Shown: piece by piece, positions 23,971-64,000 of the stretch
How the letters are laid out: each line of letters opens with the position of its first letter
How positions within the stretch are numbered: the stretch's first letter is position 1
From: Nemertoderma westbladi
Taxonomy: Eukaryota; Animalia; Xenacoelomorpha
Length of the DNA stretch: 64,000 nucleotides
Direction: 5' to 3'
Assembly: GCA_032718475.1 (NCBI GenBank)
Contig: JAUCBJ010004893.1
Coordinates: forward strand, 186,001-250,000
The notes under the pieces: generated by a model
What the model was told of the DNA's origin: nothing
What the model saw: the letters and a program-made list of their open reading frames with translations, nothing else
Databases searched by the model: none
Translations under genes and position numbers: made by a program

Positions 23971-24094
23971 GTAATTTATATGGATGGGTATTATTTTAAG
24001 ATTATTGGAATATAATATTTTAATTATTATATTAAATTTTTGAAAGATCTTACCACTATCAATTATTCCTTGGAACTAAATTTGACAAGGCCGA

Positions 24095-28465: not shown

Positions 28466-28505
28466 TAGGTGTTGGGTAAATAATGTTCTACTTAATTTCT
28501 TTCAG

Positions 28506-28742
28506 TGTTTTTGTTTTGAGGAACAGCTGTTACAGCCGGGAGAGACTGTAGATATGCCGGTGCTGTTCTACATAGACCCCGAGTACGCGGAAGATAAGGG
28601 CTTGGTCTACAGCAACACCATCGGCCTGCAGTACACATTCTTCGAAGCTAAAGAAGGTTTCAACGTCCCACGTCCGGACTTCGAAAAGTATTTATCGGAA
28701 ATACCAAACTCAACTACTGATATTCCTGTACAACCCGCGTAA
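28506..28742 (+). CDS. COX11: COX11 exon 2
   Basis: ttttcag|TGT TTT TGT completes the copper-binding IQ|CFCF motif; EEQ...VDMPVLFYIDP...L.YTFF. Confidence 0.96.
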   Translation, partial: CFCFEEQLLQPGETVDMPVLFYIDPEYAEDKGLVYSNTIGLQYTFFEAKEGFNVPRPDFEKYLSEIPNSTTDIPVQPA

Positions 28743-35899: not shown

Positions 35900-37860
35900 G
35901 TAGCACGGTCCCGTGCTGTTACACCAGTCGGATAGCACGGTCCCGTGCTGTTACACCAGTCTGCTAGCACGGTCCCGTGCTGTTACACCAGTCGGCTAGC
36001 ACGATCCTGTGCTGTTACACCAGTCGGCTAGCACGGTCCCGTGCTGTTACACCAGTCGGCTAGCACGGTCCCGTGCTGTTACACCAGTCGGCTAGCACGG
36101 TCCCGTGCTGTTACACCAGTCGGCTAGCACGGTCCCGTGCTGTTACACCAGTCGGCTAGCACGGTCCCGTGCTATTACACCAGTCGGCTAGCACGATCCC
36201 GTGCTGTTACACCAGTCGGCTAGCACGGTCCCGTGCTGTTACACCAGTCGGCTAGCACGGTCCCGCGCTGTTACACCAGTCGGCTAGCACGGTCCCGTGC
36301 TGTTACACCAGTCGGATAGCACGGTCCCGTGCTGTTACACCAGTCGGCTAGCACGGTCCCGTGCTGTTACACCAGTCGGATATGCTTTGCAGGACATTGC
36401 TTTCAGTGCAGCCAGTGCATAATCTTGTACTTTGGCAGCCTCGTGGAGTGAATAAGTATGGTGGACAGCCCATGCCTTTCTTGAGACGCATCTTACTACT
36501 AGTACTACTACAGTACTACTAGAATTGGCAAGCTGGACCATGGAGCCCATTTTGGCTCTTAGAAGGATAATTGAAGAGTTATCAAAAAAGAAAGACAGGC
36601 ATCTGGCTGTTATCTTTGTTGACTTCTTCAAGGCCTTTGATTCAGTCTCTCGCTCACGTATGTTCAGCATACTTTCATTATATGGGATTCCTGATGAAAT
36701 TATTGCAGCAATCAGATCAGTATACGATGGTTCGACAACATTTGTGTCTACTGTTGACGGTGACACAGAACCATTTGAAGTGTTATGTGGAGTCCTCCAG
36801 GGAGACACACTTGCACCATTCTTGTTCATAATTGTGGTTGACTATGTTCTACGCATATCCTTAGATCATCATAATGATGATGGAGTGATGATAACTCCAC
36901 CTACTGGCTCCAGAAATCGAGGAAATCCTGCCAAGTACCTAACTACTCTAGACTTTGCTGATGAGATAGGAGTACTCTCAGAATCACTAGAGGGAGCCCA
37001 ACGGCTCCTTAGCTCATTAGAACATGCTGCTTCTAGTGTTTGTCTTTTTATTAACTCCAGAAAGACCAAAATTTTGACAGTTAACTTTTAAAGCCCTCAG
37101 CAAGTCTCTGATCGGATGAGCATAAGCTCAAAGGATGGTATGCTTGAGCATGTGGACGACATCTGTTACCTGGAATCATGGATCCGGAAGTCAGGTGAGG
37201 ACCTTCGAATACGTAAGGGAAAGGAAAGGCATGGGCAGCTTTGAATAGGCTTTCCAAGATTTGGAAGTCACCGAGAATTAATCAGAAACTTAAGGTCCGA
37301 TCATTTAGAGCAGCTGTAGTTCCAGTACTCCTCTATGGGAGTCCATGCTGGGCTCTAACTGCTGAGGACACCAAATCTCTGGATGGCACATTCACAAGAA
37401 TGCTACGCCGGGTTCATTGTGTCAAGTACAATGCACACATCTCCAACCAGACACTATATAACATTGGAGGTGTCTCATTGGTTCCCCCAAACTTGACACT
37501 AGAACAAAATCGCCTCCGCTTTGCAGGACATTGCTTTCGACGTGAGGACCATCCAGTGCATAATCTTGTACTTTGGCAGCCTCATGGAGTGAATAAGCAT
37601 GGTGGACAGCCCATGACTTTCTTGAGACGCATCTTAAATGACACTGGCCTTGAAGATGCGGATGATCTAGCAAATGTCATGGGTGATAGGGAGTTGTGGC
37701 GGCGCAATTTTGTCGACAAGCCGGCACAGCATTCTTATAAATACAGCTGCACTGCAGCATGCCGATGCTAGTAGTAGTGCGATCCCGTGCTGTTACACCA
37801 GTCGGCTAGCACGATCCTGTGCTGTTACACCAATCGGCTAGCACGGTCCCGTGCTGTTAT
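35900..37860. repeat. 32-bp tandem array (TAGCACGGTCCCGTGCTGTTACACCAGTCGGC)n: about 15 copies at 35900-36381 and about 2.5 at 37779-37860, split by RTE sequence
   Basis: Read directly; the unit contains the hairpin AGCACGG-tc-CCGTGCT. Confidence 0.92.
36383..37778 (+). mobile_element. RTE copy 3: short 3'-region fragment (36383-36494), TAC/TAG-rich filler, then a 5'-truncated copy (about 36535-37768) with a (TAG)3 tail
   Basis: High identity to copy 1; FADE in place of FADD, a stop at 37089-37091, and a frameshifting GGAAA duplication near 37220. Confidence 0.92.
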
Positions 37861-42737: not shown

Positions 42738-45317
42738 CTATGACGGTATTTGTGTGTTTGTTTTTATGAAGGAGGAAGGTAATCTCCCGTTATGCGACAA
42801 TGATTGCTGACTCTGTAGCCACACCCTGGCCTCGGCTGATCCGGTATCAGTTGAACCCCCTGCGATTGCACCAAAGGAGCCCCAACTGGAGGGAGGTACA
42901 GAATCATCAGATGGAATTACATTAATATTAGTAGCTACAATATCTATATCTGGGAACAGAGGAGAGTTTGGTGCAGCTAAAGTTTCGTTGTTTTCATTTT
43001 CATCAACAATATTACTAATACGTAGCTCGCCGTCAAGGTTATCACTGTCTGGGAAGTGGTTCGCCCCGAAAGAATTACCAAAAAGGTTCTCACCATTGTC
43101 TTCTATTGGTCTGTTAACATCATTTTCAATGAAATGGTTCTTTCCAAATGAATCACCAAAAAGGTTCTCACCATTGTCTTCTATTGGTCTGTTAACATCA
43201 TTTTCAATGAAATGGTTCTTTCCAAATGAATCACCAAAAAGGTTCTCACCATTGTCTTCTATTGGTCTGTTATCATCATTTTCTATGAAATGGTTCTTTC
43301 CAAATGAATCACCAAAAAGGTTCTCACCATAGTCTTCTATTGGTCTGTTATCATCATAATCACCAAAAAGGTTCTCACCATTGTTTTCTATTGGTCTGTT
43401 ATCATCATTTTCAATGAAATGGTTCTTTCCAAATGAATCACCAAAAAGGTTCTCACCATTGTCTTCTATTGGTCTGTTATCATCATTTTCAATGAAATGG
43501 TTCTTCCCAAAAGAATCACCAAAAAGGTTCTCGCCATTGTCTTCTATTTGTCTGTTATCATTATTTTCAATGAAATGGTTATTTCCAAAAGAATCACCAA
43601 AGAGGTTCTCACCATTGTCTTCTATTGGTCTGTTATCATCATTTTCAATGAAATGGTTATTTCCAAAAGAATCACCAAAGAGGTTCTCACCATTGTCTTC
43701 TATTGGTGTGTTATCATCATTTTCCATGAAATGGTTCTTTCCAAATGAATCACCACTAAGGTACTCACCATTGTCATCTATTGGTCTGTTATCATCATTT
43801 TTAATGAAATGGTTCTTTCCAAATGAATCACCAAAAAGGTACTCACCATTGTCTTCTATTGGTCTGTTATCATCATTTTCAATGAAATGGTTCTTTCCAA
43901 ATGAATCACCAAAAAGGTTCTCACCATTGTCTTCTATTGGTCTGTTATCATTATTTTCAATGAAATGGTTCTTTCCAAAAGAATTACCAAAAAGGTTCGC
44001 ACCATTGTCTTCTATTGGTCTGTTATCATCATTTTCAATGAAATGGTTCTTTCCAAAAGAATCACCAAAAAGGTTCTCGCCATTGTCTTCTATTGGTCTG
44101 TTATCATTATTTTCAATGAAATGGTTCTTTCCAAAAGAATTACCAAAAAGGTTCGCACCATTGTCTTCTATTGGTCTGTTATCATCATTTTCAATGAAAT
44201 GGTTCTTTCCAAATGAATCACCAAAAAGGTTCTCACCATTGTCTTCTATTGGTCTGTTATCATCATTTTCAATGAAATGGTTCTTTCCAAAAGAATTACC
44301 AAAAAGGTTCGCACCATTGTCTTCTATAGGTCTGTTATCATCATTTTCAATGAAATGGTTCTTTCCAAATGAATCACCAAAAAGGTTCTCACCATTGTCT
44401 TCTATTGGTCTGTTATCATCATTTTCAATGAAATGGTTCTTTCCAAATGAATCACCAAAAAGGTTCTCGCCATTGTCTTCTATTGGTCTGCTATCATCAT
44501 TTACAATGAAATGGTTCTCTCCAAAAGAAGTACCAAAAAGATTCTCACCATTATCTTCTCTCGGCCTGTTGCCCTCTAATTCTAAAAAAAGTTTTTCACC
44601 ATTACCTTCTCCAGGTCTGCTCTCATGATATTCTATAACGTGGTCCACTTTGGAAGTCTTTCTAAAAAGTTTTCCCATTAAGTCCCCTGTTGGTGGGTTT
44701 TCAACTGGTACTCCAAAGGAAAACATATTCATATCGCTTTCGGCAACGTCATTGCTGTAAGTTGATGTCCCAGCACGATAATTTGTAATAATTTTATAAT
44801 TCTTGAGCATATCGATCGCTGTTATAACCTTTCCCCACAGCTTAGAAATACCAACGGAGAAATTCCAATCTACAAAAAATAAACCCGAATTATTCCTGCC
44901 TCGACGAATATCATCCCGTAGTTGTCGGATGTGGTCTAATAGAAGCCGGATTCTGCCCCGTAACATTTGTGCAGTAGCCAGAATGTTACCAGCCTTTGGC
45001 CCATCATTTATAATTGATTCAGGTGTTGGGCTGGTGGGTTTATTTGAGGTGACAACCGCCGAAGTTGCAGTTTGTCTTTCAATCGCAATGATAGGAGGCT
45101 CCTTTATCTTAATCGGCACATTTAGTTGTATTGATTGATGTTTATTACTGGATGGCCCATCTTTAATATAACCGGTGTCTGTTGGAGGTATGTTACTGGG
45201 AGATGGATCCACAGATGTGAGTGGAACACGTTTAAGTGGCATTGACACGCTCGTGCCAATCAAACACGTTATCACAAAGATAAGAACACAAATAACAATG
45301 TTTATGGAAATCTTCAT
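42738..45317 (-). CDS. Secreted 859-aa orphan protein with about 20 tandem acidic 26-aa repeats (RPIEDNGENLFGDSFGKNHFIENDDN)
   Basis: Signal peptide MKISINIVICVLIFVITCLIGTSVS; about 250 aa unique N-terminal and about 100 aa unique C-terminal open frame; 78-bp unit; the single shortened unit is an in-frame 27-nt deletion. Confidence 0.85.
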   Translation of the reverse strand: MKISINIVICVLIFVITCLIGTSVSMPLKRVPLTSVDPSPSNIPPTDTGYIKDGPSSNKHQSIQLNVPIKIKEPPIIAIERQTATSAVVTSNKPTSPTPESIINDGPKAGNILATAQMLRGRIRLLLDHIRQLRDDIRRGRNNSGLFFVDWNFSVGISKLWGKVITAIDMLKNYKIITNYRAGTSTYSNDVAESDMNMFSFGVPVENPPTGDLMGKLFRKTSKVDHVIEYHESRPGEGNGEKLFLELEGNRPREDNGENLFGTSFGENHFIVNDDSRPIEDNGENLFGDSFGKNHFIENDDNRPIEDNGENLFGDSFGKNHFIENDDNRPIEDNGANLFGNSFGKNHFIENDDNRPIEDNGENLFGDSFGKNHFIENDDNRPIEDNGANLFGNSFGKNHFIENNDNRPIEDNGENLFGDSFGKNHFIENDDNRPIEDNGANLFGNSFGKNHFIENNDNRPIEDNGENLFGDSFGKNHFIENDDNRPIEDNGEYLFGDSFGKNHFIKNDDNRPIDDNGEYLSGDSFGKNHFMENDDNTPIEDNGENLFGDSFGNNHFIENDDNRPIEDNGENLFGDSFGNNHFIENNDNRQIEDNGENLFGDSFGKNHFIENDDNRPIEDNGENLFGDSFGKNHFIENDDNRPIENNGENLFGDYDDNRPIEDYGENLFGDSFGKNHFIENDDNRPIEDNGENLFGDSFGKNHFIENDVNRPIEDNGENLFGDSFGKNHFIENDVNRPIEDNGENLFGNSFGANHFPDSDNLDGELRISNIVDENENNETLAAPNSPLFPDIDIVATNINVIPSDDSVPPSSWGSFGAIAGGSTDTGSAEARVWLQSQQSLSHNGRLPSSFIKTNTQIPS

Positions 45318-46537
45318 TATCAGTTTGTATTGTTAATAATTAATGAGGTTAACAACAAATTAATAAGTTACTTAGTTACATTTACATTATTAGTTACACT
45401 ATAAAATAAAATACATGCAGGTGTAAGTCAGAGCACCGTTCACTGAGCTGGCCATTACTGTCAGATGACATACCTCAGATACCTCCACCCCCACACCCAC
45501 AAACTTTAATAAATAAATATTGTGATTTTTTAGATATTGATCCTAATCTGCGATAGAAAATAATCAGTAGTGAATGAACCCCGATAAAACATCACAATCA
45601 TAAGTTTAACACAAATTAATAAATCATTTTTATCTCTTGAGTTATATAATAAGATAGCTTTCCCAAGGAATAACAACACGCGTCGATTGGTCGGGTCGAT
45701 TATTGGCAACTTCCTGTGATAGGTCGGAATAGTGAGTGCATGTGATACCACCTACCTGAATTCTTGGATAAGTATACGAACTATGATACCAAATCATACG
45801 TGCCATACGACTAATTAATTTCAATTTTTAATTAACTGTGATTGATGGAATATAAAGGTTTTCTATTTAATTTACGGGTTGAACTCAGAAGGAAGATAAA
45901 TCCTTGAACGTGGCTTTAGGCGCGTGCCATATATACAATTACGTAAACATAATTAGTAAACATAACCGAGGCCACTAGCGGTGTGGGGGTGGTGGGTGGA
46001 TAGCAATGGGTGGACATACAACAACCCAATTAGTGGGCGTTCATTGACAAACCTGACCCAACCCGCAGCAAGCTTAATTCGCAGAAATGCACCGGCTTTG
46101 TCAACTATAAGTCGAGCAACCCATAATCTAGCCTCAACAAAAATGTATTTATTTGTAGAAATGTGGACAATACTACATTTAATTAATAATAATTATTAAT
46201 ATCACAAATTATAATATTTCAGTGGATGTAAACATGATATCCGCATCAAATCAATAACCTGATGATAAAAATACAACACATAATAAAATTGTCACAATTA
46301 TCTTGTAATTCATTACTTTCCATTTGTCATAAGAACTGCACAGCGCAAACAATAAAAGCCAAATAAATACAATATTGTAATCAATACACAAACAATATAA
46401 CTTTATTTGATGTCAAACAAACAATTTATTTTGAACACAAATTTCGGTTAGTTTTCTCTCTCTGAGGCTTTACATGTACTGAATAAATATGTTACTAAAT
46501 ACGAATCAATAATTTTACGTGAATTCAATTTTTGTAC

Positions 46538-47322
46538 TATCTCTATCAGGCACCCATGACGCTATGGGAGCTCGCTCTCTATCTCTATCAGGTACCCATG
46601 ACGCTATGGGAGCTCGCTCTCTATCTGTATCAGGTACCCATGATGCTATGGGAGCTCGCTCTCTATCTGTATCAGGTACCCATGACGCTATGGGAGCTCG
46701 CTCTCTATCTGTATCAGGTACCCATGATGCTATGGGAGCTCGCTCTCTATCTCTATCAGGCACCCATGACGCTATGGGAGCTCGCTCTCTATCTGTATCA
46801 GGTACCCATGATGCTATGGGAGCTCGCTCTCTATCTCTATCAGGCACCCATGACGCTATGGGAGCTCGCTCTCTATCTGTATCAGGCACCCATGACGCTA
46901 TGGGAGCTCGCTCTCTATCTGTATCAGGCACCCATGACGCTATGGGAGCTCGCTCTCTATCTCTATCAGGCACCCATGACGCTATGGGAGCTCGCTCTCT
47001 ATCTGTATCAGGCACCCATGACGCTATGGGAGCTCGCTCTCTATCTCTATCAGGTACCCATGACGCTATGGGAGCTCGCTCTCTATCTGTATCAGGCACC
47101 CATGACGCTATGGGAGCTCGCTCTCTATCTCTATCAGGTACCCATGACGCTATGGGAGCTCGCTCTCTATCTCTATCAGGCACCCATGACGCTATGGGAG
47201 CTCGCTCTCTATCTGTATCAGGTACCCATGATGCTATGGGAGCTCGCTCTCTATCTCTATCAGGCACCCATGACGCTATGGGAGCTCGCTCTCTATCTGT
47301 ATCAGGTACCCATGATGCTATG
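46538..47322. repeat. 42-bp tandem array (CTATCTSTATCAGGYACCCATGAYGCTATGGGAGCTCGCTCT)n, about 18-19 copies
   Basis: Read directly. Confidence 0.96.
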
Positions 47323-48136
47323 CGTCGCCTAGGGTCTAATATTGTTGTTTACAATTGTCACATAAAGGCTACCGGTACCTACTTACCAGTAGGCAAAAGA
47401 ACAATACATTAAAACAATAGGTTGTTAATTAAAAAAAACACATTAATGGTAAGGTGTTGATATTAAAATAAATTACAAGTCGCCACGCACCGCAAAATAT
47501 TACTAAGTAAAAAGATTAACATTGTTATAATCGGTACTATCTGATAAACATTATTTATTCTACAATAAGTTAAATAAAATACCTGTGTTTTGAATTAAAT
47601 CTACACAATATTAATACTCAATTATACAACACAGCCTATTAATATACACAAGGCCAGGAGTAGAGACATGGCAGCCACTACTAACATTAAAACAAAACAC
47701 CGCTAAAGAAAACTTAGAAATACAAAATATAGACAATTCAAATTAAAAAACCTACAGCTGGGGACATTTTATTACAAATCCTACAACAAAGTTGTACAAA
47801 ATTATATAATTTATAAACTAGGTAAGTATTTAATATGATATCCTCAATAACATGGTTGGTTCCCATATAACAGTGGCGCACTAGTTTCTAGCGAATAAAT
47901 GTTGGTTTACACCGAACTGCTTCTCTGGTTCCGCGGATTCCAGATAATAAATCGAAATAAAATCTACAACTGATTGTCGAAATTAATTAATTGATTTGTG
48001 CAGATATTGTTTCAATAAAAGCAGCCCAGTTCGTTGTTTAATTGCTACCAATCACATCCACTCAATTACATAATATATAATCGTATATTGCATTGTTTGT
48101 ATGAGTCATCGCATTACTAAAGCGTCTGCTGTTTGT

Positions 48137-48228
48137 CTAGGACGTTTCGAAGCCCATGTAATTCAATAAACTAAAGATTATGAGGCAAAAACAGGACAGT
48201 TTGTAACTCATCCTCCTCGGTTCACATC
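48137..48228 (-). CDS. Otoancorin/stereocilin-like gene, terminal exon (GPI-anchor-type signal)
   Basis: ttttcag|GA TGT... gives (S)GCEPRRMSYKLSCFCLIIFSLLNYMGFETS*: small residues, spacer, hydrophobic tail. Confidence 0.7.
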
Positions 48229-48536
48229 CTGAAAATATGAAAACAATATTGAATTGTAAAATTAGGTTAATTTTAGTAGAAACTACATAATCTTAGCACG
48301 AATTGCATGCATAAACTGGGTCTCCAGTCAGTTTAGATGTAATCCTACATATCTACAAGTAAAGTACTTTACCATTAACCTCAAAATTAATGAAATATAA
48401 TTAACTAACTGATCAAAATTTTATATCATCTTTATTAAATAGTGTCATAGTGAACAACAATATAGTAAGTCATAATCAGCCATTAATCTTAATTAACCTG
48501 ATGTAATCTTAGATTTATCGAACATGATTTCCTCAC

Positions 48537-48675
48537 CTGAAGTTCTTTTTTCTTTACCGAACATCGCATACGCGTCCTCTGGAATGTCAGTTTCGTGATG
48601 ATATTGAACGATCAACAAGTTTCTCAACTGTTCGTAGGTTAATTCCCGACGTTGTCGATTGTGGACTGCAGCGGC
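48537..48675 (-). CDS. Otoancorin/stereocilin-like gene, exon
   Basis: ttccag|AAAVHNRQRRELTYEQLRNLL...KRTS G|gtgagg; the QAAAV...Q...L..EQ...L pattern is typical of the family C-terminus. Confidence 0.8.
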
Positions 48676-48773
48676 CTGGAAGCGAGTAAAATAAATTTGA
48701 ATTTAAACAAATAGACCACGGTAAGTCCGATAAGCAAACATCACAATCACAGCTGATCAGGAGTTAAAATTAC

Positions 48774-48916
48774 CTGTGAAGGAGTTAATTGAGAGAATCG
48801 TTGATCCGGGAACTGGCCCATAATCACTCCGTCAATGGCGGGAATTCCGTACTCAGCGGAAACGAACTCGAAATCGGACCTCGGAACCCTGTTGAGTTCG
48901 CTCAGCGTCAGACCAC
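48774..48916 (-). CDS. Otoancorin/stereocilin-like gene, exon
   Basis: atccag|(G)GLTLSELNRVP...FSQLTPSQ|gtaatt; phase 1 to 0, matching both neighbours. Confidence 0.82.
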
Positions 48917-49179
48917 CTGGATAGGAAATACAAACAATTCAAATAATATCTGGCGTAGGTTAAGTTAAGTACAATCTCACCCACATACTAACGTACGAAA
49001 GGATATAAGGCCTGATCACAAATAGTGTTGGTAATTCAACAAAACAAACACATTATTTTCCATACAAATCTTAATGAGATGATGGGGGCGGTGTCTCAGA
49101 ATTTTGAGATACGATATTCCATGACAGATTAAATCTGGGTCCATAGCGATCATATCAAAATATAGGTAACTGTCAGATA

Positions 49180-49968
49180 CTACTACTACTATTGACATCA
49201 ATGTTGTATAGAGTCTGATTGGAGATGTGTGCATTGTACTTGACACAATGAACCCGGTGTAGCATTCTTGTGAAAGTGACATCCAGAGATTTGGTATCCT
49301 CAGCAGTTAGAGCCCAGCATTGACTCCCATATATGAGTACAGGTACCACTGCTGCTCTAAATAATCGAACCTTAAGGTTCCGTTTTATTCTATGAGATTT
49401 CCAAATCCTGGACAGACTATTTAACACTGCCCATGCCTTCCCCTTACGTATCCGATTCACCAGACTTTCTGATCGGTGATCCCAAGTAGCAGAAGTCATC
49501 CACGTGCTCAAGCAAGCCTTCCCTAGAGCTTATGCCCTTACGATCAGGCATTTCTTGAGGGCTGTCTAGGTTGACTGTCATGATTTTGGTCTTTTTGTAG
49601 TTTACAAAAAAACCAAGACTAGAAGCAACCTGTTCCAATGAGCAGAGGAGCCATTGGGCTCCCTCTAGTGATACCGAGAGTATTCCTAAGTCATCAACAA
49701 AGTGAAGATACCATCACCCCATCATCATTATGATGGTCTAAGGACATGCGTAGAACATTATGAACCACAATTACGAATAAGAATGGTGCAAGTGTGTCAT
49801 CCTGAAGATAGATAGATAAACTCTTTTATTATCGATATGGTGAATATATATATAAATTGCACCAGGCAGTCGATTTAAAATAATTATGTTGTATAGCTTT
49901 GCAGCAATCGACATCAACGAGATTCCTCGAAAAGATCCATGGGTTGCCCTTCTTTGGGGCTGGGACCA
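49180..49968 (-). mobile_element. RTE copy 4 (diverged), internally deleted, 3'-truncated, followed by (TAG)4
   Basis: Minus strand: PAPKKGN...FRGISLMSIAAKLYN [gap] QDDTLAPFLF...HVDDFCYLGS...RLFRAAVVPVLIYGSQCWALT...QTLYNI. Confidence 0.9.
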
Positions 49969-49998
49969 ACTGCTCAGATACGGTCTGTCATACTCATA

Positions 49999-52900
49999 GT
50001 GTCGGATACTCAGCTATGACTCACCCACTACGGCTCCTATCTCAGCCAATATCGGATACTCAGCTATGACTCACCCACTACGGCTCCTATCTCAGCCAGT
50101 GTCGGATACTCAGCTATGACTCACCCACTACGGCTCCTATCTCAGCCAATATCGGATACTCAGCTATGACTCACCCACTACGGCTCCTATCTCAGCCAAT
50201 ATCGGATACTCAGCTATGACTCACCCACTACGGCTCCTATCTCAGCCAATATCGGATACTCAGCTATGACTCACCCACTACGGCTCCTATCTCAGCCAGT
50301 GTCGGATACTCAGCTATGACTCACCCACTGCGGCTCCTATCTCAGCCAATATCGGATACTCAGCTATGACTCACCCACTACGGCTCCTATCTCAGCCAGT
50401 GTCGGATACTCAGCTATGACTCACCCACTGCGGCTCCTATCTCAGCCAATATCGGATACTCAGCTATGACTCACCCACTACGGCTCCTATCTCAGCCAGT
50501 GTCGGATACTCAGCTATGACTCACCCACTGCGGCTCCTATCTCAGCCAATATCGGATACTCAGCTATGACTCACCCACTACGGCTCCTATCTCAGCCAGT
50601 GTCGGATACTCAGCTATGACTCACCCACTGCGGCTCCTATCTCAGCCAATATCGGATACTCAGCTATGACTCACCCACTACGGCTCCTATCTCAGCCAAT
50701 GTCGGATACTCAGCTATGACTCACCCACTGCGGCTCCTATCTCAGCCAATATCGGATACTCAGCTATGACTCACCCACTACGGCTCCTATCTCAGCCAAT
50801 ATCGGATACTCAGCTATGACTCACCCACTACGGCTCCTATCTCAGCCAATATCGGATACTCAGCTATGACTCACCCACTGCGGCTCCTATCTCAGCCAAT
50901 ATCGGATACTCAGCTATGACTCACCCACTGCGGCTCCTATCTCAGCCAATATCGGATACTCAGCTATGACTCACCCACTGCGGCTCCTATCTCAGCCAGT
51001 GTCGGATACTCAGCTATGACTCACCCACTACGGCTCCTATCTCAGCTGAGTGTCGGATACTCAGCTATGACTCACCCACTACGGCTCCTATCTCAGCTGA
51101 GTGTCGGATACTCAGCTATGACTCACCCACTGCGGCTCCTATCTCAGCCAATATCGGATACTCAGCTATGACTCACCCACTGCGGCTCCTATCTCAGCCA
51201 ATATCGGATACTCAGCTATGACTCACCCACTGCGGCTCCTATCTCAGCCAGTGTCGGATACTCAGCTATGACTCACCCACTACGGCTCCTATCTCAGCCA
51301 ATATCGGATACTCAGCTATGACTCACCCACTGCGGCTCCTATCTCAGCCAATATCGGATACTCAGCTATGACTCACCCACTGCGGCTCCTATCTCAGCCA
51401 ATATCGGATACTCAGCTATGACTCACCCACTGCGGCTCCTATCTCAGCCAATATCGGATACTCAGCTATGACTCACCCACTACGGCTCCTATCTTAGCCA
51501 GTGTCGGATACTCAGCTATGACTCACCCACTGCGGCTCCTATCTCAGCCAATATCGGATACTCAGCTATGACTCACCCACTGCGGCTCCTATCTCAGCCA
51601 ATATCGGATACTCAGCTATGACTCACCCACTACGGCTCCTATCTCAGCCAATATCGGATACTCAGCTATGACTCACCCACTACGGCTCCTATCTTAGCCA
51701 GTGTCGGATACTCAGCTATGACTCACCCACTGCGGCTCCTATCTCAGCCAATATCGGATACTCAGCTATGACTCACCCACTGCGGCTCCTATCTCAGCCA
51801 ATGTCGGATACTCAGCTATGACTCACCCACTACGGCTCCTATCTCAGCCAATATCGGATACTCAGCTATGACTCACCCACTACGGCTCCTATCTCAGCCA
51901 ATATCGGATACTCAGCTATGACTCACCCACTGCGGCTCCTATCTCAGCCAGTGTCGGATACTCAGCTATGACTCACCCACTGCGGCTCCTATCTCAGCCA
52001 GTGTCGGATACTCAGCTATGACTCACCCACTACGGCTCCTATCTCAGCCAATATCGGATACTCAGCTATGACTCACCCACTACGGCTCCTATCTCAGCCA
52101 ATATCGGATACTCAGCTATGACTCACCCACTGCGGCTCCTATCTCAGCCAGTGTCGGATACTCAGCTATGACTCACCCACTGCGGCTCCTATCTCAGCCA
52201 GTGTCGGATACTCAGCTATGACTCACCCACTACGGCTCCTATCTCAGCCAATATCGGATACTCAGCTATGACTCACCCACTGCGGCTCCTATCTCAGCCA
52301 GTGTCGGATACTCAGCTATGACTCACCCACTGCGGCTCCTATCTCAGCCAGTGTCGGATACTCAGCTATGACTCACCCACTACGGCTCCTATCTCAGCCA
52401 ATATCGGATACTCAGCTATGACTCACCCACTACGGCTCCTATCTCAGCCAGTGTCGGATACTCAGCTATGACTCACCCACTACGGCTCCTATCTCAGCCA
52501 GTGTCGGATACTCAGCTATGACTCACCCACTACGGCTCCTATCTCAGCCAATATCGGATACTCAGCTATGACTCACCCACTACCGCTCCTATCTCAGCCA
52601 ATATCGGATACTCAGCTATGACTCACCCACTACCGCTCCTATCTCAGCCAATGTCGGATACTCAGCTATGACTCACCCACTACGGCTCCTATCTCAGCCA
52701 ATATCGGATACTCAGCTATGACTCACCCACTACGGCTCCTATCTCAGCCAATGTCGGATACTCAGCTATGACTCACCCACTACGGCTCCTATCTCAGCCA
52801 ATATCGGATACTCAGCTATGACTCACCCACTACGGCTCCTATCTCAGCCAATATCGGATACTCAGCTATGACTCACCCACTACCGCTCCTATCTCAGCCA

Positions 52901-55900
52901 ATGTCGGATACTCAGCTATGACTCACCCACTACGGCTCCTATCTCAGCCAATGTCGGATACTCAGCTATGACTCACCCACTACGGCTCCTATCTCAGCCA
53001 ATGTCGGATACTCAGCTATGACTCACCCACTACGGCTCCTATCTCAGCCAGTGTCGGATACTCAGCTATGACTCACCCACTACGGCTCCTATCTCAGCCA
53101 GTGTCGGATACTCAGCTATGACTCACCCACTACGGCTCCTATCTCAGCCAATATCGGATACTCAGCTATGACTCACCCACTACGGCTCCTATCTCAGCCA
53201 ATATCGGATACTCAGCTATGACTCACCCACTACCGCTCCTATCTCAGCCAATGTCGGATACTCAGCTATGACTCACCCACTACGGCTCCTATCTCAGCCA
53301 GTGTCGGATACTCAGCTATGACTCACCCACTACGGCTCCTATCTCAGCCAATATCGGATACTCAGCTATGACTCACCCACTACGGCTCCTATCTCAGCCA
53401 ATATCGGATACTCAGCTATGACTCACCCACTACGGCTCCTATCTCAGCCAATATCGGATACTCAGCTATGACTCACCCACTACGGCTCCTATCTCAGCCA
53501 GTGTCGGATACTCAGCTATGACTCACCCACTACGGCTCCTATCTCAGCCAATATCGGATACTCAGCTATGACTCACCCACTACGGCTCCTATCTCAGCCA
53601 GTGTCGGATACTCAGCTATGACTCACCCACTACGGCTCCTATCTCAGCCAGTGTCGGATACTCAGCTATGACTCACCCACTACGGCTCCTATCTCAGCCA
53701 GTGTCGGATACTCAGCTATGACTCACCCACTACGGCTCCTATCTCAGCCAATGTCGGATACTCAGCTATGACTCACCCACTGCGGCTCCTATCTCAGCCA
53801 ATATCGGATACTCAGCTATGACTCACCCACTACGGCTCCTATCTCAGCCAATATCGGATACTCAGCTATGACTCACCCACTACGGCTCCTATCTCAGCCA
53901 ATGTCGGATACTCAGCTATGACTCACCCACTGCGGCTCCTATCTCAGCCAATGTCGGATACTCAGCTATGACTCACCCACTACGGCTCCTATCTCAGCCA
54001 GTGTCGGATACTCAGCTATGACTCACCCACTACGGCTCCTATCTCAGCCAGTGTCGGATACTCAGCTATGACTCACCCACTACGGCTCCTATCTCAGCCA
54101 ATGTCGGATACTCAGCTATGACTCACCCACTACGGCTCCTATCTCAGCCAGTGTCGGATACTCAGCTATGACTCACCCACTACGGCTCCTATCTCAGCCA
54201 GTGTCGGATACTCAGCTATGACTCACCCACTACGGCTCCTATCTCAGCCAGTGTCGGATACTCAGCTATGACTCACCCACTACGGCTCCTATCTCAGCCA
54301 GTGTCGGATACTCAGCTATGACTCACCCACTACGGCTCCTATCTCAGCCAGTGTCGGATACTCAGCTATGACTCACCCACTGCGGCTCCTATCTCAGCCA
54401 ATATCGGATACTCAGCTATGACTCACCCACTACGGCTCCTATCTCAGCCAATATCGGATACTCAGCTATGACTCACCCACTACGGCTCCTATCTCAGCCA
54501 GTGTCGGATACTCAGCTATGACTCACCCACTGCGGCTCCTATCTCAGCCAATATCGGATACTCAGCTATGACTCACCCACTACGGCTCCTATCTCAGCCA
54601 GTGTCGGATACTCAGCTATGACTCACCCACTACGGCTCCTATCTCAGCCAATATCGGATACTCAGCTATGACTCACCCACTACGGCTCCTATCTCAGCCA
54701 GTGTCGGATACTCAGCTATGACTCACCCACTACGGCTCCTATCTCAGCCAATATCGGATACTCAGCTATGACTCACCCACTACGGCTCCTATCTCAGCCA
54801 ATATCGGATACTCAGCTATGACTCACCCACTACGGCTCCTATCTCAGCCAGTGTCGGATACTCAGCTATGACTCACCCACTACGGCTCCTATCTCAGCCA
54901 ATGTCGGATACTCAGCTATGACTCACCCACTACGGCTCCTATCTCAGCCAGTGTCGGATACTCAGCTATGACTCACCCACTACGGCTCCTATCTCAGCCA
55001 GTGTCGGATACTCAGCTATGACTCACCCACTACGGCTCCTATCTCAGCCAGTGTCGGATACTCAGCTATGACTCACCCACTGCGGCTCCTATCTCAGCCA
55101 ATATCGGATACTCAGCTATGACTCACCCACTACGGCTCCTATCTCAGCCAGTGTCGGATACTCAGCTATGACTCACCCACTACGGCTCCTATCTCAGCCA
55201 ATGTCGGATACTCAGCTATGACTCACCCACTACGGCTCCTATCTCAGCCAGTGTCGGATACTCAGCTATGACTCACCCACTACGGCTCCTATCTCAGCCG
55301 AGTGTCGGATACTCAGCTATGACTCACCCACTACGGCTCCTATCTCAGCCAGTGTCGGATACTCAGCTATGACTCACCCACTGCGGCTCCTATCTCAGCC
55401 AATATCGGATACTCAGCTATGACTCACCCACTACGGCTCCTATCTCAGCCAGTGTCGGATACTCAGCTATGACTCACCCACTACGGCTCCTATCTCAGCC
55501 AGTGTCGGATACTCAGCTATGACTCACCCACTACGGCTCCTATCTCAGCCAGTGTCGGATACTCAGCTATGACTCACCCACTGCGGCTCCTATCTCAGCC
55601 AATATCGGATACTCAGCTATGACTCACCCACTGCGGCTCCTATCTCAGCCAGTGTCGGATACTCAGCTAAGACTCACCCACTACGGCTACTATCTCAGCC
55701 AATGTCGGATACTCAGCTATGACTCACCCACTACGGCTCCTATCTCAGCCAGTGTCGGATACTCAGCTATGACTCACCCACTACGGCTCCTATCTCAGCC
55801 AGTGTCGGATACTCAGCTATGACTCACCCACTGCGGCTCCTATCTCAGCCAATATCGGATACTCAGCTATGACTCACCCACTACGGCTCCTATCTCAGCC

Positions 55901-56164
55901 AATATCGGATACTCAGCTATGACTCACCCACTACGGCTCCTATCTCAGCCAATATCGGATACTCAGCTATGACTCACCCACTACGGCTCCTATCTCAGCC
56001 AGTGTCGGATACTCAGCTATGACTCACCCACTGCGGCTCCTATCTCAGCCAATATCGGATACTCAGCTATGACTCACCCACTACGGCTACTATCTCAGCC
56101 AATGTCGGATACTCAGCTATGACTCACCCACTACGGCTCCTATCTCAGCCAGTGTCGGATACTC
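49999..56164 (-). repeat. 50-bp tandem array, about 123 copies; amplified exon end plus 5' splice site (GAGTATCCGACACTGGCTGAGATAGGAGCCGTAGTGG|GTGAGTCATAGCT)
   Basis: The first unit on the minus strand is the last 37 nt of exon 56128-56267 plus 13 intronic nt. Confidence 0.97.
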
Positions 56165-56267
56165 CCAATTATAGGGACTCCCATAGACAACCTCAGCAAG
56201 AGACTTCAATGATTGGAGGACTTCGTAAGGACAATTTCGAATCATCCCAACCTTTCTGGCAACCAAT
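56128..56267 (-). CDS. Otoancorin/stereocilin-like gene, exon (absent from the ORF track)
   Basis: ctacag|(R)LVARKVGMIRNCPYEVLQSLKSLAEVVYGSPYNWEYPTLAEIGAVV G|gtgagt; supplies exactly the phase 2 to 1 link needed between the flanking exons. Confidence 0.88.
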
Positions 56268-56403
56268 CTGTAGACAATGGTGACAATTTAATTACAAATT
56301 TATAAAGTTAACTTGACTAAATAAACACTGTTTTAGGAGTTATATATATTAGAGATAAATAAAACCTATTATATAAAACACCAACACTAGTTATTCTACC
56401 AAC

Positions 56404-56699
56404 CTATACTCCTCCGCAGGTATGAGTTTTATATCAGCGGCCGATAAACCGCATATAATTTCCCCCATCGCAGCCAAATGATAACTTTTCAGTTTATCAA
56501 CTGTCACTTTTTGGTCTTTGAGGAATTTCTCTGCCATAAGTCTGGTATGCGTATCAGACCATTCGTAACTCGAGATATATTCAACCACGTCCAGATCTGA
56601 TAAGTCCAAATTACTGAGATCATTGGGAGATGCCACCGTTAACAGAGGCCCCAACTCGCCTATGTGCTGGGGTGTCCACTTTTCAACCCGACCCCACTC
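56404..56699 (-). CDS. Otoancorin/stereocilin-like gene, exon
   Basis: ttttttag|EWGRVEKWTPQHIGELGPLL...LAAMGEIICGLSAADIKLIPAEEY R|gttggt; family motifs G....W.......LG and L..hG..hCGL....I..I. Confidence 0.88.
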
Positions 56700-56834
56700 C
56701 TAAAAAAAACAATTCCCTAGAAGGCCTCCCAATAGACACAAAATGTTCGACCCGAATTCAGTTTATCAGATATGATTCTATATTGGTTATAAATGATATT
56801 AATAAGAAGATAAGGGGATCGCCTCCCCTTAGCC

Positions 56835-57739
56835 CCACCGCACCATCCCGTTGTAGATTAGCCACTAACCTGCACTGCGTTCTCTAACCCCTCCATCCCG
56901 TTGTAGATTAGCCACTAACCTGCACTGCGTTCTCTAACCCCACCATCCCGTTGTAGATTAGCCACTAACCTGCACTGCGTTCTCTAACCCCTCCATCCCG
57001 TTGTAGATTAGCCACTAACCTGCACTGCGTTCTCTAACCCCACCATCCCGTTGTAGATTAGCCACTAACCTGCACTGCGTTCTCTAACCCCTCCATCCCG
57101 TTGTAGATTAGCCACTAACCTGCACTGCGTTCTCTAACCCCTCCATCCCGTTGTAGATTAGCCACTAACCTGCACTGCGTTCTCTAACCCCTCCATCCCG
57201 TTGTAGATTAGCCACTAACCTGCACTGCGTTCTCTAACCCCACCATCCCGTTGTAGATTAGCCACTAACCTGCACTGCGTTCTCTAACCCCTCCATCCCG
57301 TTGTAGATTAGCCACTAACCTGCACTGCGTTCTCCCCACCGCACCATCCCGTTGTAGATTAGCCACTAACCTGCACTGCGTTCTCTAACCCCTCCATCCC
57401 GTTGTAGATTAGCCACTAACCTGCACTGCGTTCTCTAACCCCACCATCCCGTTGTAGATTAGCCACTAACCTGCACTGCGTTCTCTAACCCCTCCATCCC
57501 GTTGTAGATTAGCCACTAACCTGCACTGCGTTCTCTAACCCCACCATCCCGTTGTAGATTAGCCACTAACCTGCACTGCGTTCTCTAACCCCACCATCCC
57601 GTTGTAGATTAGCCACTAACCTGCACTGCGTTCTCTAACCCCTCCATCCCGTTGTAGATTAGCCACTAACCTGCACTGCGTTCTCCCCACCGCACCATCC
57701 CGTTGTAGATTAGCCACTAACCTGCACAGCGTTCTCTAA
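56835..57739 (-). repeat. 50/51-bp tandem array, 18 copies; amplified exon end plus 5' splice site (TTAGAGAACGCAGTGCAG|GTTAGTGGCTAATCTACAACGGGATGG...)
   Basis: The first unit on the minus strand is the end of exon 57722-58129. Confidence 0.97.
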
Positions 57740-58129
57740 CAGACTTTCCTTCTGTGAGTAGGTCCACGGCACGTCTAACCGACTCAGATAGCCGACGCAA
57801 GCATTGAAGTCCCCGGGCTCCATATCCCGGAGTTTGAAGGAGTCCCATATTGTGTTCCCGAAGCCCAGGGCCTTCATCTCCTGGCACTGTGGCCGGTGGT
57901 GCAGACTACGACGTCTTCGGGCACCCTTTCCTCTCATCACCCGGGTGTACGCCACGGCCACCGCCTCCCGACACTGCTGCACCCGTAGGCCGAGATTCTC
58001 CCGTCGCATCACCGGCTGCTCTACAGACAGGGCGTGTTGGCAACGCGATTCCCGTTCCAGACGCCGGTTCCGCTGTTCCATCGAACCGCCCAAGTTGAGT
58101 ATCGCTGGGGCGCGATTCGCAATAATTAC
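57722..58129 (-). CDS. Otoancorin/stereocilin-like gene, most upstream exon visible (5' boundary tentative)
   Basis: ...RRRRS...PQCQEMKALGFGNTIWDSFKLRDMEPGDFNACVGYLSRLDVPWTYSQKESLLENAVQ|gttagt; phase-0 join to the next exon. Confidence 0.85.
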
Positions 58130-59885: not shown

Positions 59886-62800
59886 TAGCACCACCATCCG
59901 CGGGACCAACCTGCGAACGGCAGTCACACACTCGTTGTAGCACACACCAAGTCACATACAAATGTAGCCCTAACCCGCGAACGGCAGTCACACACTCGTT
60001 GTAGCACACACCAAGTCACATACAAATGTAGCCCCAACCCGCGAACGGCAGTCACACACTCGTTGTAGCACACACCAAGTCACATACAAATGTAGCACCA
60101 CCATCCGCGGGACCAACCCGCGAACGGCAGTCACACACTCGTTGTAGCACACACCAAGTCACATACAAATGTAGCCCTAACCCGCGAACGGCAGTCACAC
60201 ACTCGTTGTAGCACACACCAAGTCACATACAAATGTAGCCCCAACCCGCGAACGGCAGTCACACACTCGTTGTAGCACACACCAAGACACATACAAATGT
60301 AGCCCCAACCCGCAAACGGCAGTCACACACTCGTTGTAGCACACACCAAGTCACATACAAATGTAGCCCCAACCCGCGAACGGCAGTCACACACTCGTTG
60401 TAGCACACACCAAGTCACATACAAATGTAGCCCTAACCCGCGAACGGCAGTCACACACTCGTTGTAGCACACACCAAGTCACATACAAATGTAGCACCAC
60501 CATCCGCGGGACCAACCCGCGAACGGCAGTCACACACTCGTTGTAGCACACACCAAGTCACATACAAATGTAGCCCTAACCCGCGAACGGCAGTCACACA
60601 CTCGTTGTAGCACACACCAAGTCACATACAAATGTAGCCCCAACCCGCAAACGGCAGTCACACACTCGTTGTAGCACACACCAAGTCACATACAAATGTA
60701 GCCCCAACCCGCGAACGGCAGTCACACACTCGTTGTAGCACACACCAAGTCACATACAAATGTAGCCCCAACCCGCGAACGGCAGTCACACACTCGTTGT
60801 AGCACACACCAAACCAAGTCACATACAAATGTAGCCCCAACCCGCGAACGGCAGTCACACACTCGTTGTAGCACACACCAAGTCACATACAAATGTAGCA
60901 CCACCATCCGCGGGACCAACCCGCGAACGGCAGTCACACACTCGCTGTAGCACACACCAAGTCACATACAAATGTAGCCCCAACCCGCGAACGGCAGTCA
61001 CACACTCGTTGTAGCACACACCAAGTCACATACAAATGTAGCACCACCATCCGCGGGACCAACCCGCGAACGGCAGTCACACACTCGCTGTAGCACACAC
61101 CAAGTCACATACAAATGTAGCCCCAACCCGCGAACGACAGTCACACACTCGTTGTAGCACACACCAAGTCACATACAATTGTAGCCCCAACCAGCGAACG
61201 GAAGTCACACACTCGTTGTAGCACACACCAAGTCACATACAAATGTAGCCCCAACCCGCGAACGGCAGTCACACACTCGTTGTAGCACACACCAAGTCAC
61301 ATACAAATGTAGCACCACCATCCGCGGGACCAACCCGCGAACGGCAGTCACACACTCGCTGTAGCACACACCAAGTCACATACAAATGTAGCCCCAACCC
61401 GCGAACGGCAGTCACACACTCGTTGTAGCACACACCAAGTCACATACAAATGTAGCACCACCATCCGCGGGACCAACCCGCGAACGGCAGTCACACACTC
61501 GTTGTAGCACACACCAAGTCACATACAAATGTAGCCCCAACCCGCGAACGGCAGTCACACACTCGTTGTAGCACACACCAAGTCACATACAAATGTAGCA
61601 CCACCATCCGCGGGACCAACCCGCGAACGGCAGTCACACACTCGTTGTAGCACACACCAAGTCACATACAAATGTAGCCCCAACCCGCGAACGGCAGTCA
61701 CACACGCGTTGTAGCACACACCAAGTCACATACAAATGTAGCACCACCATCCGCGGGACCAACCCGCGAACGGCAGTCACACACTCGTTGTAGCACACAC
61801 CAAGTCACATACAAATGTAGCCCCAACCCGCGAACGGCAGTCACACACTCGTTGTAGCACACACCAAGTCACATACAAATGTAGCACCACCATCCGCGGG
61901 ACCAACCCGTGAACGACAGTCACACACTCGTTGTAGCACACACCAAGTCACATACAAATGTAGCCCCAACCCGCGAACGGCAGTCACACACTCGTTGTAG
62001 CACACACCAAGTCACATACAAATGTAGCACCACCATCAGCGGGACCAACCCGTGAACGACAGTCACATACTCGTTGTAGCACACACCAAGTCACATACAA
62101 ATGTAGCACCACCATCCGCGGGACCAACCCGTGAACGACAGTCACATACTCGTTGTAGCACACACCAAGTCACATACAAACGTAGCCCCAACCCGCGAAC
62201 GGCAGTCACACACTCGTTGTAGCACACACCAAGTCACATACAAATGTAGCCCTAACCCGCGAACGGCAGTCACATACTCGTTGTAGCACACACCAAGTCA
62301 CATACAAATGTAGCACCACCATCCGCGGGACCAACCCGCGAACGGCAGTCACACACTCGTTGTAGCACACACCAAGTCACATACAAATGTAGCCCCAACC
62401 CGCGAACGGCAGTCACACACTCGTTGTAGCACACACCAAGTCACATACAAATGTAGCACCACCATCCGCGGGACCAACCCGCGAACGGCAGTCACACACT
62501 CGTTGTAGCACACACCAAGTCACATACAAATGTAGCCCCAACCCGCGAACGGCAGTCACACACTCGTTGTAGCACACACCAAGTCACATACAAATGTAGC
62601 ACCACCATCCGCAGGACCAACCCGCGAACGGCAGTCACACACTCGCTGTAGCACACACCAAGTCACATACAAATGTAGCCCCAACCCGCGAACGGCAGTC
62701 ACACACTCGTTGTAGCACACACCAAGTCACATACAAATGTAGCTCACCATCCGCGGGACCAACCCGCGAACGGCAGTCACACACTCGTTGTAGCACACAC

Positions 62801-64000
62801 CAAGTCACATACAAATGTAGCCCCAACCCGCGAACGGCAGTCACACACTCGTTGTAGCACACACCAAGTCACATACAAATGTAGCACCACCATCCGCGGG
62901 ACCAACCCGTGAACGACAGTCACACACTCGTTGTAGCACACACCAAGTCACATACAAATGTAGCCCCAACCCGCGAACGGCAGTCACACACTCGTTGTAG
63001 CACACACCAAGTCACATACAAATGTAGCACCACCATCAGCGGGACCAACCCGTGAACGACAGTCACATACTCGTTGTAGCACACACCAAGTCACATACAA
63101 ATGTAGCACCACCATCCGCGGGACCAACCCGTGAACGACAGTCACATACTCGTTGTAGCACACACCAAGTCACATACAAACGTAGCCCCAACCCGCGAAC
63201 GGCAGTCACACACTCGTTGTAGCACACACCAAGTCACATACAAATGTAGCCCTAACCCGCGAACGGCAGTCACATACTCGTTGTAGCACACACCAAGTCA
63301 CATACAAATGTAGCACCACCATCCGCGGGACCAACCCGCGAACGGCAGTCACACACTCGTTGTAGCACACACCAAGTCACATACAAATGTAGCCCCAACC
63401 CGCGAACGGCAGTCACACACTCGTTGTAGCACACACCAAGACACATACAAATGTAGCCCTAACCCGCGAACGGCAGTCACACACTCGTTGTAGCACACAC
63501 CAAGTCACATACAAATGTAGCCCCAACCCGCGAACGGCAGTCACACACTCGTTGTAGCACACACCAAGTCACATACAAATGTAGCCCCAACCCGCGAACG
63601 GCAGTCACACACTCGTTGTAGCACACACCAAGTCACATACAAATGTAGCCCCAACCCGCGAACGGCAGTCACACACTCGTTGTAGCACACACCAAGTCAC
63701 ATACAAATGTAGCACCACCATCCGCGGGACCAACCCGCGAACGGCAGTCACACACTCGTTGTAGCACACACCAAGTCACATACAAATGTAGCCCTAACCC
63801 GCGAACGGCAGTCACACACTCGTTGTAGCACACACCAAGTCACATACAAATGTAGCCCTAACCCGCGAACGGCAGTCACACACTCGTTGTAGCACACACC
63901 AAGTCACATACAAATGTAGCCCTAACCCGCGAACGGCAGTCACACACTCGTTGTAGCACACACCAAGTCACATACAAATGTAGCCCCAACCCGCGAACGG
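59886..64000. repeat. 64/79-bp tandem array, more than 55 copies, running off the window; probably intronic in the otoancorin-like gene
   Basis: Two length variants interspersed; a higher-order duplication with about 1-kb offset (diagnostic CCCGTGAACGACAG blocks near 61900 and 62900). Confidence 0.96.

What the first reader, a model, noticed from the sequence alone, without database searches (positions are those of the whole stretch)
49999..56164. About 122 decoy 5' splice sites in a row after one exon
Seen: 6.1 kb of a 7.2-kb intron is (37 exonic nt + G|GTGAGT + CATAGCT)n with the donor intact in the copies inspected, and many units identical to the real exon end. Reading through the first donor gives GGT GAG TCA TAG, an immediate stop, so any decoy use truncates the protein before its GPI signal. 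The array ends mid-unit against an RTE. Inference: an extreme test of first-donor selection, potentially a U1 snRNP sink or a copy-number-dependent expression/NMD dial.
Basis: partly seen in the sequence, partly recalled or inferred. Interest (0 to 1): 0.8.

Follow-up and report, generated by a model that had tools for sequence, protein, structure and literature searches.

The report
Splice-donor "mirage" minisatellite in otoancorin-like gene
In an animal's otoancorin-like gene, the last 37 bases of an exon plus its splice signal are repeated 123 times into the next intron, yet the one assembled transcript (from another individual) is cut at the first signal, so this is likely a large but tolerated example of a repeat type already known from lancelets and several human genes.

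Summary
The array at 50000-56164 has 123 copies of a 50-nt unit (37 exon + 13 intron nt): one real donor and 122 intact copies, filling 6.1 kb of a 7,211-nt intron. The host gene encodes the C-terminal third of an otoancorin/mesothelin/stereocilin-family protein. A public run that behaves as RNA gives one 1,621-nt contig with all five modelled introns removed and the first donor (56128) joined to 48916; no contig from it carried the repeat-unit junction. The kind is known: lancelet 'mirages', and human F7, CBS, IFI6, LMNB2 and PDGF junction-spanning minisatellites, where first-donor choice has been tested by mutation (F7). The scan's earlier, unchecked notes report the same on other DNA: many loci of this genome (up to about 2,100 copies) and at least 17 genomes. 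Half of this window is tandem arrays. A U1 sink or expression dial has no support. Caveats: the RNA is from another individual with unknown array length, contigs drop rare isoforms, and decay of stop-carrying messages would hide decoy use.

The parts
50000..56164 (-). Donor array 1 (the finding): 50-nt unit = last 37 nt of exon C + first 13 nt of the intron; 123 donors (1 real, 122 copies)
56128..56267 (-). Exon C (140 nt); its donor at 56127 is the first of array 1
   Evidence: model; X4 contig covers it and continues into exon D; matches otoancorin-like P0121 residues 1046-1089
48917..56127 (-). Intron C-D, 7,211 nt, GT..AG, with its own pyrimidine-rich acceptor outside the array
49199..49963 (-). 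Degenerate RTE-type LINE fragment in the intron, 78-79% like a younger copy in the window, about 36 nt past the array end
48774..48916 (-). Exon D (143 nt), acceptor joined to the first donor
   Evidence: (loose end of X4 at 56125 is exon D)
48537..48675 (-). Exon E (139 nt)
   Evidence: X4 joints skip 98 and 308 nt with GT..AG ends
47400..48228 (-). Last exon: hydrophobic C-terminal tail (likely GPI signal), stop near 48138, and 3' UTR reaching at least 47400
   Evidence: X4 contigs cover 47835-48227 and 47400-47830
56404..56699 (-). Exon B (296 nt), best match to otoancorin-like proteins
   Evidence: phmmer E 3.3e-19 to P0121, named otoancorin-like; X4 joint skips 56268-56403
56843..57740 (-). 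Donor array 2, not in the finding: 50/51-nt unit with CAG|GTTAGT, 18 donors (1 real at 57721, 17 copies); read-through GTT AGT GGC TAA
   Evidence: X4 loose end at 56701 is exon A's end, i.e. first donor used
57722..58104 (-). Exon A (5' edge uncertain; 58104 is a candidate acceptor); the gene likely continues upstream beyond the window
   Evidence: matches P0121 867-941 and P0122 825-931; homologs are about 1,100-1,200 aa

Best explanation
This is a minisatellite whose 50-nt seed straddles an exon-intron junction of an otoancorin-like gene, likely expanded as a neutral by-product and likely tolerated because the spliceosome uses the most upstream donor, as the one transcript contig shows. Shown: the anatomy, the open frame over six exons, first-donor use at both arrays in one RNA-like run. 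Inferred: the seed duplication arose by slippage or unequal exchange between two GAGTAT hexamers, one 37 nt inside the exon and one just past the array end; the array then grew and homogenised like the other arrays that fill half of this window. Inferred from F7 (PMC1557585): donors are chosen in 5'-to-3' order on the nascent RNA, helped by definition of the 140-nt exon from its own acceptor; the copies have no pyrimidine-rich acceptor of their own. Any leak to a copy meets an in-frame stop within 11 nt and would likely be destroyed by nonsense-mediated decay, so selection has little to act on.
For: One X4 contig (1,621 nt, depth 144) runs unbroken through exons F-E-D-C-B with the exon C end joined to exon D and the exon A end joined to exon B. 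X4 has no depth in introns 56276-56387, 48300-48479, 48930-49109, so it is RNA-like rather than genomic. In bin 50010-50085 X4 depth is 75.8, exactly what 40 nt of that one contig give (144x40/76), and it is 0 at 56080-56107: no unit-junction contig was laid. 31,978 of 64,000 nt lie in 18 tandem arrays; of 16 long arrays, 2 are shown to sit on a donor. GAGTAT stands at both ends of the array. Exon-identical copies: 30 of 62 in the exon-near half, 7 of 60 in the far half, the polarity expected of repeat turnover. Same anatomy and outcome in lancelet mirages (PMC3087553, PMC3902484) and human F7, LMNB2, PDGF (PMC1557585).
Against: X4 is a different sample whose exon variants match X2, not the window; its array length is unknown, and X2's depth suggests about 19 copies, so the 123-copy allele itself was not seen spliced. 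One run only; contigs drop rare forms and decay would hide decoy-spliced messages. In human IFI6 and CBS the next one or two copies are used (PMC1557585 introduction). An unchecked note on another locus of this genome (e1-10614089) reports splicing from an inner copy at similar depth. Two arrays in one six-exon stretch, and many more in the scan's notes, hint that seeding is not random.
Confidence: 0.8

Rival explanations
1. Junction-biased mutation: in this genome, tandem duplication is drawn to splice junctions (for example by breaks or R-loops at paused, co-transcriptionally spliced exon ends, or simply by the higher G+C of exons). The array is still functionless but marks a mutational process. 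This is compatible with the best explanation and differs only in why the seed lies there.
For: 2 of 5 donors of this gene are arrayed; a likely acceptor array at 995-1788; unchecked notes list several multi-array genes in the same genome. Both donor arrays have 52% G+C against 28-47% in most other 2-kb bins.
Against: Given that the window was picked for the first array, one more hit among 11 other known junctions has P about 0.19 (0.09 among 5 donors) under random seeding. 14 of 16 long arrays are not shown to lie on a junction, and the COX11 intron array is interior. The notes are a selected, unchecked set. No genome is held, so no genome-wide count.
Confidence: 0.35
2. Expression dial: each extra donor draws some splicing to a stop-carrying message, so longer alleles give less protein through nonsense-mediated decay, and the length is tuned.
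For: All 122 copies keep the donor and all four tested copy uses give a premature stop; length seems to differ between samples (about 60-138 in X1, about 19 in X2); the title of Lievers 2001, seen in the reference lists of PMC2630376 and PMC1557585, links CBS repeat to reduced activity.
Against: No decoy-spliced or unit-carrying X4 contig. Invariance of the donor is unremarkable: only 7 of 50 positions vary among 119 units, P about 0.18 for none in the 9-mer (computed with 8). In F7 only the most upstream site competes, so copies beyond the first few would add nothing (PMC1557585).
Confidence: 0.07
3. U1 snRNP sink: the nascent intron holds enough U1 to affect splicing elsewhere.
For: 122 sites with 6 Watson-Crick plus 2 wobble matches to the recalled U1 consensus.
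Against: It is the weakest match of the six donors scored (6 against 7-9). Even 100 nascent transcripts would offer about 12,000 sites against about a million U1 per human cell (recalled figure, not for this animal).
Confidence: 0.02
4. Assembly inflation: the true array is much shorter.
For: X1 depth against the 20.2 unique contig gives about 60 copies; X2 about 19; X3 5-37.
Against: X1 depth against the neighbouring 8.7 contig gives about 138; 13 unit variants occur in a non-periodic order; 60 per chromosome on average would fit one long and one short allele.
Confidence: 0.08

Closest known systems
Lancelet 'mirage' minisatellites (Adh3, globins BflGb6/BflGb9, troponin C, PGBD5); PMC3087553 and PMC3902484, matching passages read; the original Adh3 paper not seen
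   Same: [quoted passage not shown]
   Different: 123 copies here against 3-6 for BflGb6; every unit keeps the signal; a different animal (lineage not established by my calls).
Human F7 intron 7 37-bp VNTR; PMC1557585, abstract, introduction and discussion read
   Same: First unit spans the junction; identical downstream pseudo-donors; only the most upstream is used.
   Different: 5-9 copies and 4 exonic nt in F7, against 123 copies and 37 exonic nt here; in F7 two pseudo-sites would keep the frame, here every tested use hits a stop; the scanning rule was tested by mutation there, not here.
Human CBS intron 13 31-bp VNTR c.1444_1467+7(16_21) (PMC2630376 passages); IFI6/6-16, LMNB2 and PDGF minisatellites (known to me only through PMC1557585's introduction)
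   Same: CBS unit is 24 exonic + 7 intronic nt, the same exon-heavy design; LMNB2 and PDGF use only the authentic donor.
   Different: CBS and IFI6 also use the next two copies; all have at most 26 sites.
Otoancorin / mesothelin / stereocilin family (PF06060, PF21058) as host gene
   Same: Exons A-C collinear with residues 867-1089 of starfish otoancorin-like P0121; hydrophobic C-terminal tail.
   Different: 24-41% identity only; no exon hit Pfam directly; the N-terminal two thirds are not in the window; orthology not tested.

Membership tests
Mirage / junction-spanning minisatellite | Head-to-tail repeat whose first unit spans an authentic exon-intron boundary | tested here: met
   boundary confirmed by the X4 contig
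Mirage / junction-spanning minisatellite | Unit of minisatellite size (10-160 bp in the lancelet cases) | tested here: met
   50 nt; range from PMC3087553
Mirage / junction-spanning minisatellite | Splice signal retained in the copies | tested here: met
   122 of 122 copies keep TGG|GTGAGT
Mirage / junction-spanning minisatellite | Regular splicing at the authentic site is not disturbed | tested here: met
   Major isoform only, one run, another individual; minor use cannot be seen in contigs
Mirage / junction-spanning minisatellite | Length differs between alleles | tested here: inconclusive
   Depth ratios about 60-138 (X1), 19 (X2), 5-37 (X3); the tool warns that summed contig depth is no copy number, and 33 records were not shown
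Mirage / junction-spanning minisatellite | Somatic instability (reported for Adh3) | not testable with these tools
   needs single-molecule reads from several tissues
F7-type oriented scanning | Inactivating the first donor activates the next copy only | not testable with these tools
   needs a minigene; shown for F7 in PMC1557585
Intron born from tandem duplication of an AG|GT proto-splice site | Both donor and acceptor come from the repeat unit | tested here: not met
   Acceptors 48917 and 56700 lie outside the arrays, behind their own pyrimidine tracts
Otoancorin/mesothelin/stereocilin | Significant, collinear similarity to named members | tested here: met
   65 hits at E up to 0.001, best 3.3e-19; 9 of the top 10 named otoancorin or otoancorin-like; 5 of 6 scanned carry PF06060 and/or PF21058; Atlas leads agree
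Otoancorin/mesothelin/stereocilin | Direct Pfam hit on the window's protein | tested here: inconclusive
   0 of 4 exons scanned singly (46-120 aa) hit at E 0.1; the pieces are short
Otoancorin/mesothelin/stereocilin | C-terminal GPI signal | not testable with these tools
   hydrophobic tail seen; no predictor available

The most novel reading that the evidence does not exclude
This animal has a mutational process aimed at splice junctions that builds donor and acceptor arrays genome-wide, and at loci such as this one the array length sets gene output by diverting messages into nonsense-mediated decay: a genome-wide layer of length-tunable splice decoys.
Probability: 0.08. Interest if true: 0.7.

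Novelty: new member of a known kind. Interest (0 to 1): 0.2.

Why it matters
As a single locus, little: it adds an invertebrate example, about five times larger than the largest published case I read of (26 sites in IFI6), to a described class and agrees with the first-donor rule. Its use is as material: 122 identical donors with the exonic context copied for 37 nt say that local sequence cannot pick the site, so order along the transcript or exon definition must. Natural long and short alleles of two arrays in one gene would let one measure whether far copies cost any splicing yield. The open question of real interest is genome-wide: whether arrays are seeded at junctions more than chance gives.

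Tried and rejected
No genome is held, so no genome-wide test. The run search listed no holder on record as RNA ('no RNA holder listed'); X4 turned out RNA-like only when laid. RNA structure hiding the copies: local folding at three window sizes gave the first donor no consistent advantage (unpaired probability 0.0006-0.006 for the first, 0-0.016 for 11 copies): rejected as the selector. Recursive splicing or pseudo-exons inside array 1: no AG|GT and almost no pyrimidine-rich acceptor on the sense strand (0.0 per unit): rejected. Origin of the unit from the RTE or another part of the window: no match longer than 11 nt outside the arrays. Word-based homolog search with exon B among longer proteins found nothing, nor did PDB; the full HMMER search did. 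Exon D was matched collinearly in 0 of the 2 homologs (of 65) that had both a C and a D blastp hit; its likeness to the residues after 1089 of P0121 is by eye only. Placing the organism: CARNMT1 top hits are all animals at 40-49%, COX11 gave one unnamed hit at 48%, three window proteins are not in the collection: animal, lineage not established. No upstream otoancorin exon found between 58200 and 64000 by tblastn beyond low-complexity hits. The 24-aa peptide after array 995-1788 had no PDB match. Paper searches returned nothing; PMC10078293 passages were not relevant; ABCA7 and CACNA1C papers were seen only as listings.
Full report
Observation. Tandem Repeats Finder places a 50-nt array at 50000-56164, 123.2 copies, 96% matches. 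On the minus strand it holds 123 TGG|GTGAGT sites, all intact; 119 of 122 spacings are 50 nt and 3 are 51 nt; 37 of 122 copies match the real exon's last 37 nt exactly; there are 13 unit variants in a non-periodic order. Only 7 of 50 positions vary among the 119 units of 50 nt, none in the donor 9-mer, which chance allows (P about 0.18). The array ends mid-unit at 50000; a degenerate reverse-transcriptase retroelement fragment begins about 36 nt further.

Host gene. Six exons on the minus strand (58104-57722, 56699-56404, 56267-56128, 48916-48774, 48675-48537, 48228 onward) give one open frame of 396 residues ending in a hydrophobic tail. Exon B found 65 relatives at E up to 0.001 (best 3.3e-19); 9 of the top 10 are named otoancorin or otoancorin-like and 5 of 6 scanned carry Mesothelin and/or Stereocilin domains. 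Exons A, B and C map in order to residues 867-941, 945-1042 and 1046-1089 of a 1,210-aa starfish protein. So this is the C-terminal third of an otoancorin-family protein; the rest likely lies beyond the window. No single exon hit Pfam directly (0 of 4). The organism is an animal; its lineage was not established.

A second array. The intron after exon A holds an unrelated 50/51-nt array (56843-57740) with 18 CAG|GTTAGT sites, whose read-through also stops after three codons.

Splicing. The run search listed no RNA holder, but run X4, guessed as DNA, behaves as RNA: one contig of 1,621 nt at depth 144 skips the introns 56268-56403, 48676-48773 and 48229-48536 with GT..AG ends; its loose end at exon C continues into exon D and its loose end at exon B continues into exon A's true end. 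Both arrayed introns are therefore cut at their first donor. X4 has no depth in the unique introns. It has none at 56080-56107, and in 50010-50085 exactly the 75.8 that 40 nt of the real exon end give, so no contig with a unit-to-unit junction was laid. Limits: this is one run; its exon variants match X2 and not the window; its array length is unknown; contigs drop rare forms; and decoy-spliced messages would carry a premature stop (residue 275 of 396 for the four copies tested) and would likely be degraded.

Is the length real? DNA contigs of X1, X2 and X3 break where the arrays begin and carry unit-junction contigs at high depth. Summed depth against unique depth gives about 60-138 copies in X1 (possibly the window's source), about 19 in X2 and 5-37 in X3 (unique depth differed between for X1 and X3, 33 records were not shown, and the tool warns that this is no copy number). 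The array is real; that it varies in length is likely, not shown.

Mechanism. Half of the window (31,978 of 64,000 nt) lies in 18 tandem arrays of 19-78-nt units. The hexamer GAGTAT stands at the start of the unit in the exon and again just past the array's end, which fits a seed duplication between short direct repeats (inference; the link between minisatellite birth and short flanking repeats is recalled). Exon-identical units are commoner near the exon (30 of 62) than far from it (7 of 60). Folding gives the first donor no steady advantage in accessibility, and the unit has no pyrimidine-rich acceptor. Since sequence for 37 nt upstream and 13 nt downstream is the same at many copies, position must decide: first come on the nascent RNA, or definition of the 140-nt exon. 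This is inferred from F7, where mutation showed that the copies work but only the most upstream competes, and where stop-codon surveillance did not explain the choice (PMC1557585). Here I cannot separate true first-donor choice from decay of the alternatives.

Is seeding biased to junctions? Under random seeding each junction has about a 1.9% chance of lying in a seed; given that the window was chosen for the first array, one more among 11 other known junctions has P about 0.19. The window alone does not show a bias. A third, unverified acceptor-like array at 995-1788 (14 exact acceptor motifs in 18 units) and the scan's notes point that way.

Known systems. [quoted passage not shown] PMC1557585 lists IFI6 (25 pseudo-sites, two used), CBS (15-20, two used), LMNB2 (10-15) and PDGF (16-18), the last two using only the authentic site. 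The originals of those were not seen, and no supplements were opened. Searches showed no paper on this locus; I did not read the ABCA7 or CACNA1C papers listed, so larger published cases may exist.

Earlier findings of the scan. Unchecked AI notes describe the same on other pieces of this genome, with about 100 to 2,100 copies and mostly first-donor use, and 59 findings in at least 17 genomes hold the search words. None lies near this window. I did not test them; they do not support my reading, but if right, 123 copies is middling for this animal. One (e1-10614089) reports use of an inner copy, which keeps the dial idea alive for some loci.

Verdict. Real, correctly described, and a new member of a known kind: a mirage-type splice-donor minisatellite, likely neutral. 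The U1 sink is implausible by numbers (recalled U1 abundance); the NMD dial is unsupported but not excluded. Interest 0.2.

Noticed in passing
window 995-1788 (+): Array of about 18 units of 39-44 nt, 14 with an exact pyrimidine-rich CAG acceptor motif; the last opens a 24-codon frame to a stop, and a possible 42-nt exon with a good donor lies at 81-122. Possibly an acceptor-type mirage of a gene that starts before the window. No RNA check; no PDB match.
   Followed up: partly
window 59906-64000 (-): 64/79-nt array running off the window's end, likely inside the upstream intron of the otoancorin-like gene; 58 units carry a TTT|GTATGT donor-like motif. Could be a third donor array whose exon lies outside the window.
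   Followed up: partly
window 56843-57740 and 50000-56164: The two donor arrays are unrelated in sequence but both have 50-nt units and 52% G+C, whereas other units in the window range from 19 to 78 nt.
   Followed up: no
window 11991-13430 and 36456-37772: Two retroelement copies (95% identical) each sit between two stretches of one minisatellite (33-nt and 32-nt units), as if inserted into arrays; the fragment in the finding's intron also adjoins an array and begins near the same point of the element as the first.
   Followed up: partly
window 23269-28740 (+): COX11 gene (PF04442) with one intron, 23971-28505, holding a 31-nt x 140 array in its interior, clear of both junctions.
   Followed up: partly
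window 30798-31931 (-): Carnosine N-methyltransferase gene (PF07942, E 1e-95) in one uninterrupted frame, 40-49% identical to listed relatives.
   Followed up: partly
window 42738-45320 (-): 860-codon open frame with a hydrophobic N-terminus and an in-frame 78-nt (26-residue) Asn/Asp/Gly/Phe-rich repeat of about 19 copies; no Pfam hit, not in the protein collection. Could be a secreted or precursor protein.
   Followed up: partly
window 46537-47322: A 42-nt x 19 array begins about where the X4 3' UTR contig of the otoancorin-like gene would end (it runs 90 nt past 47400).
   Followed up: no
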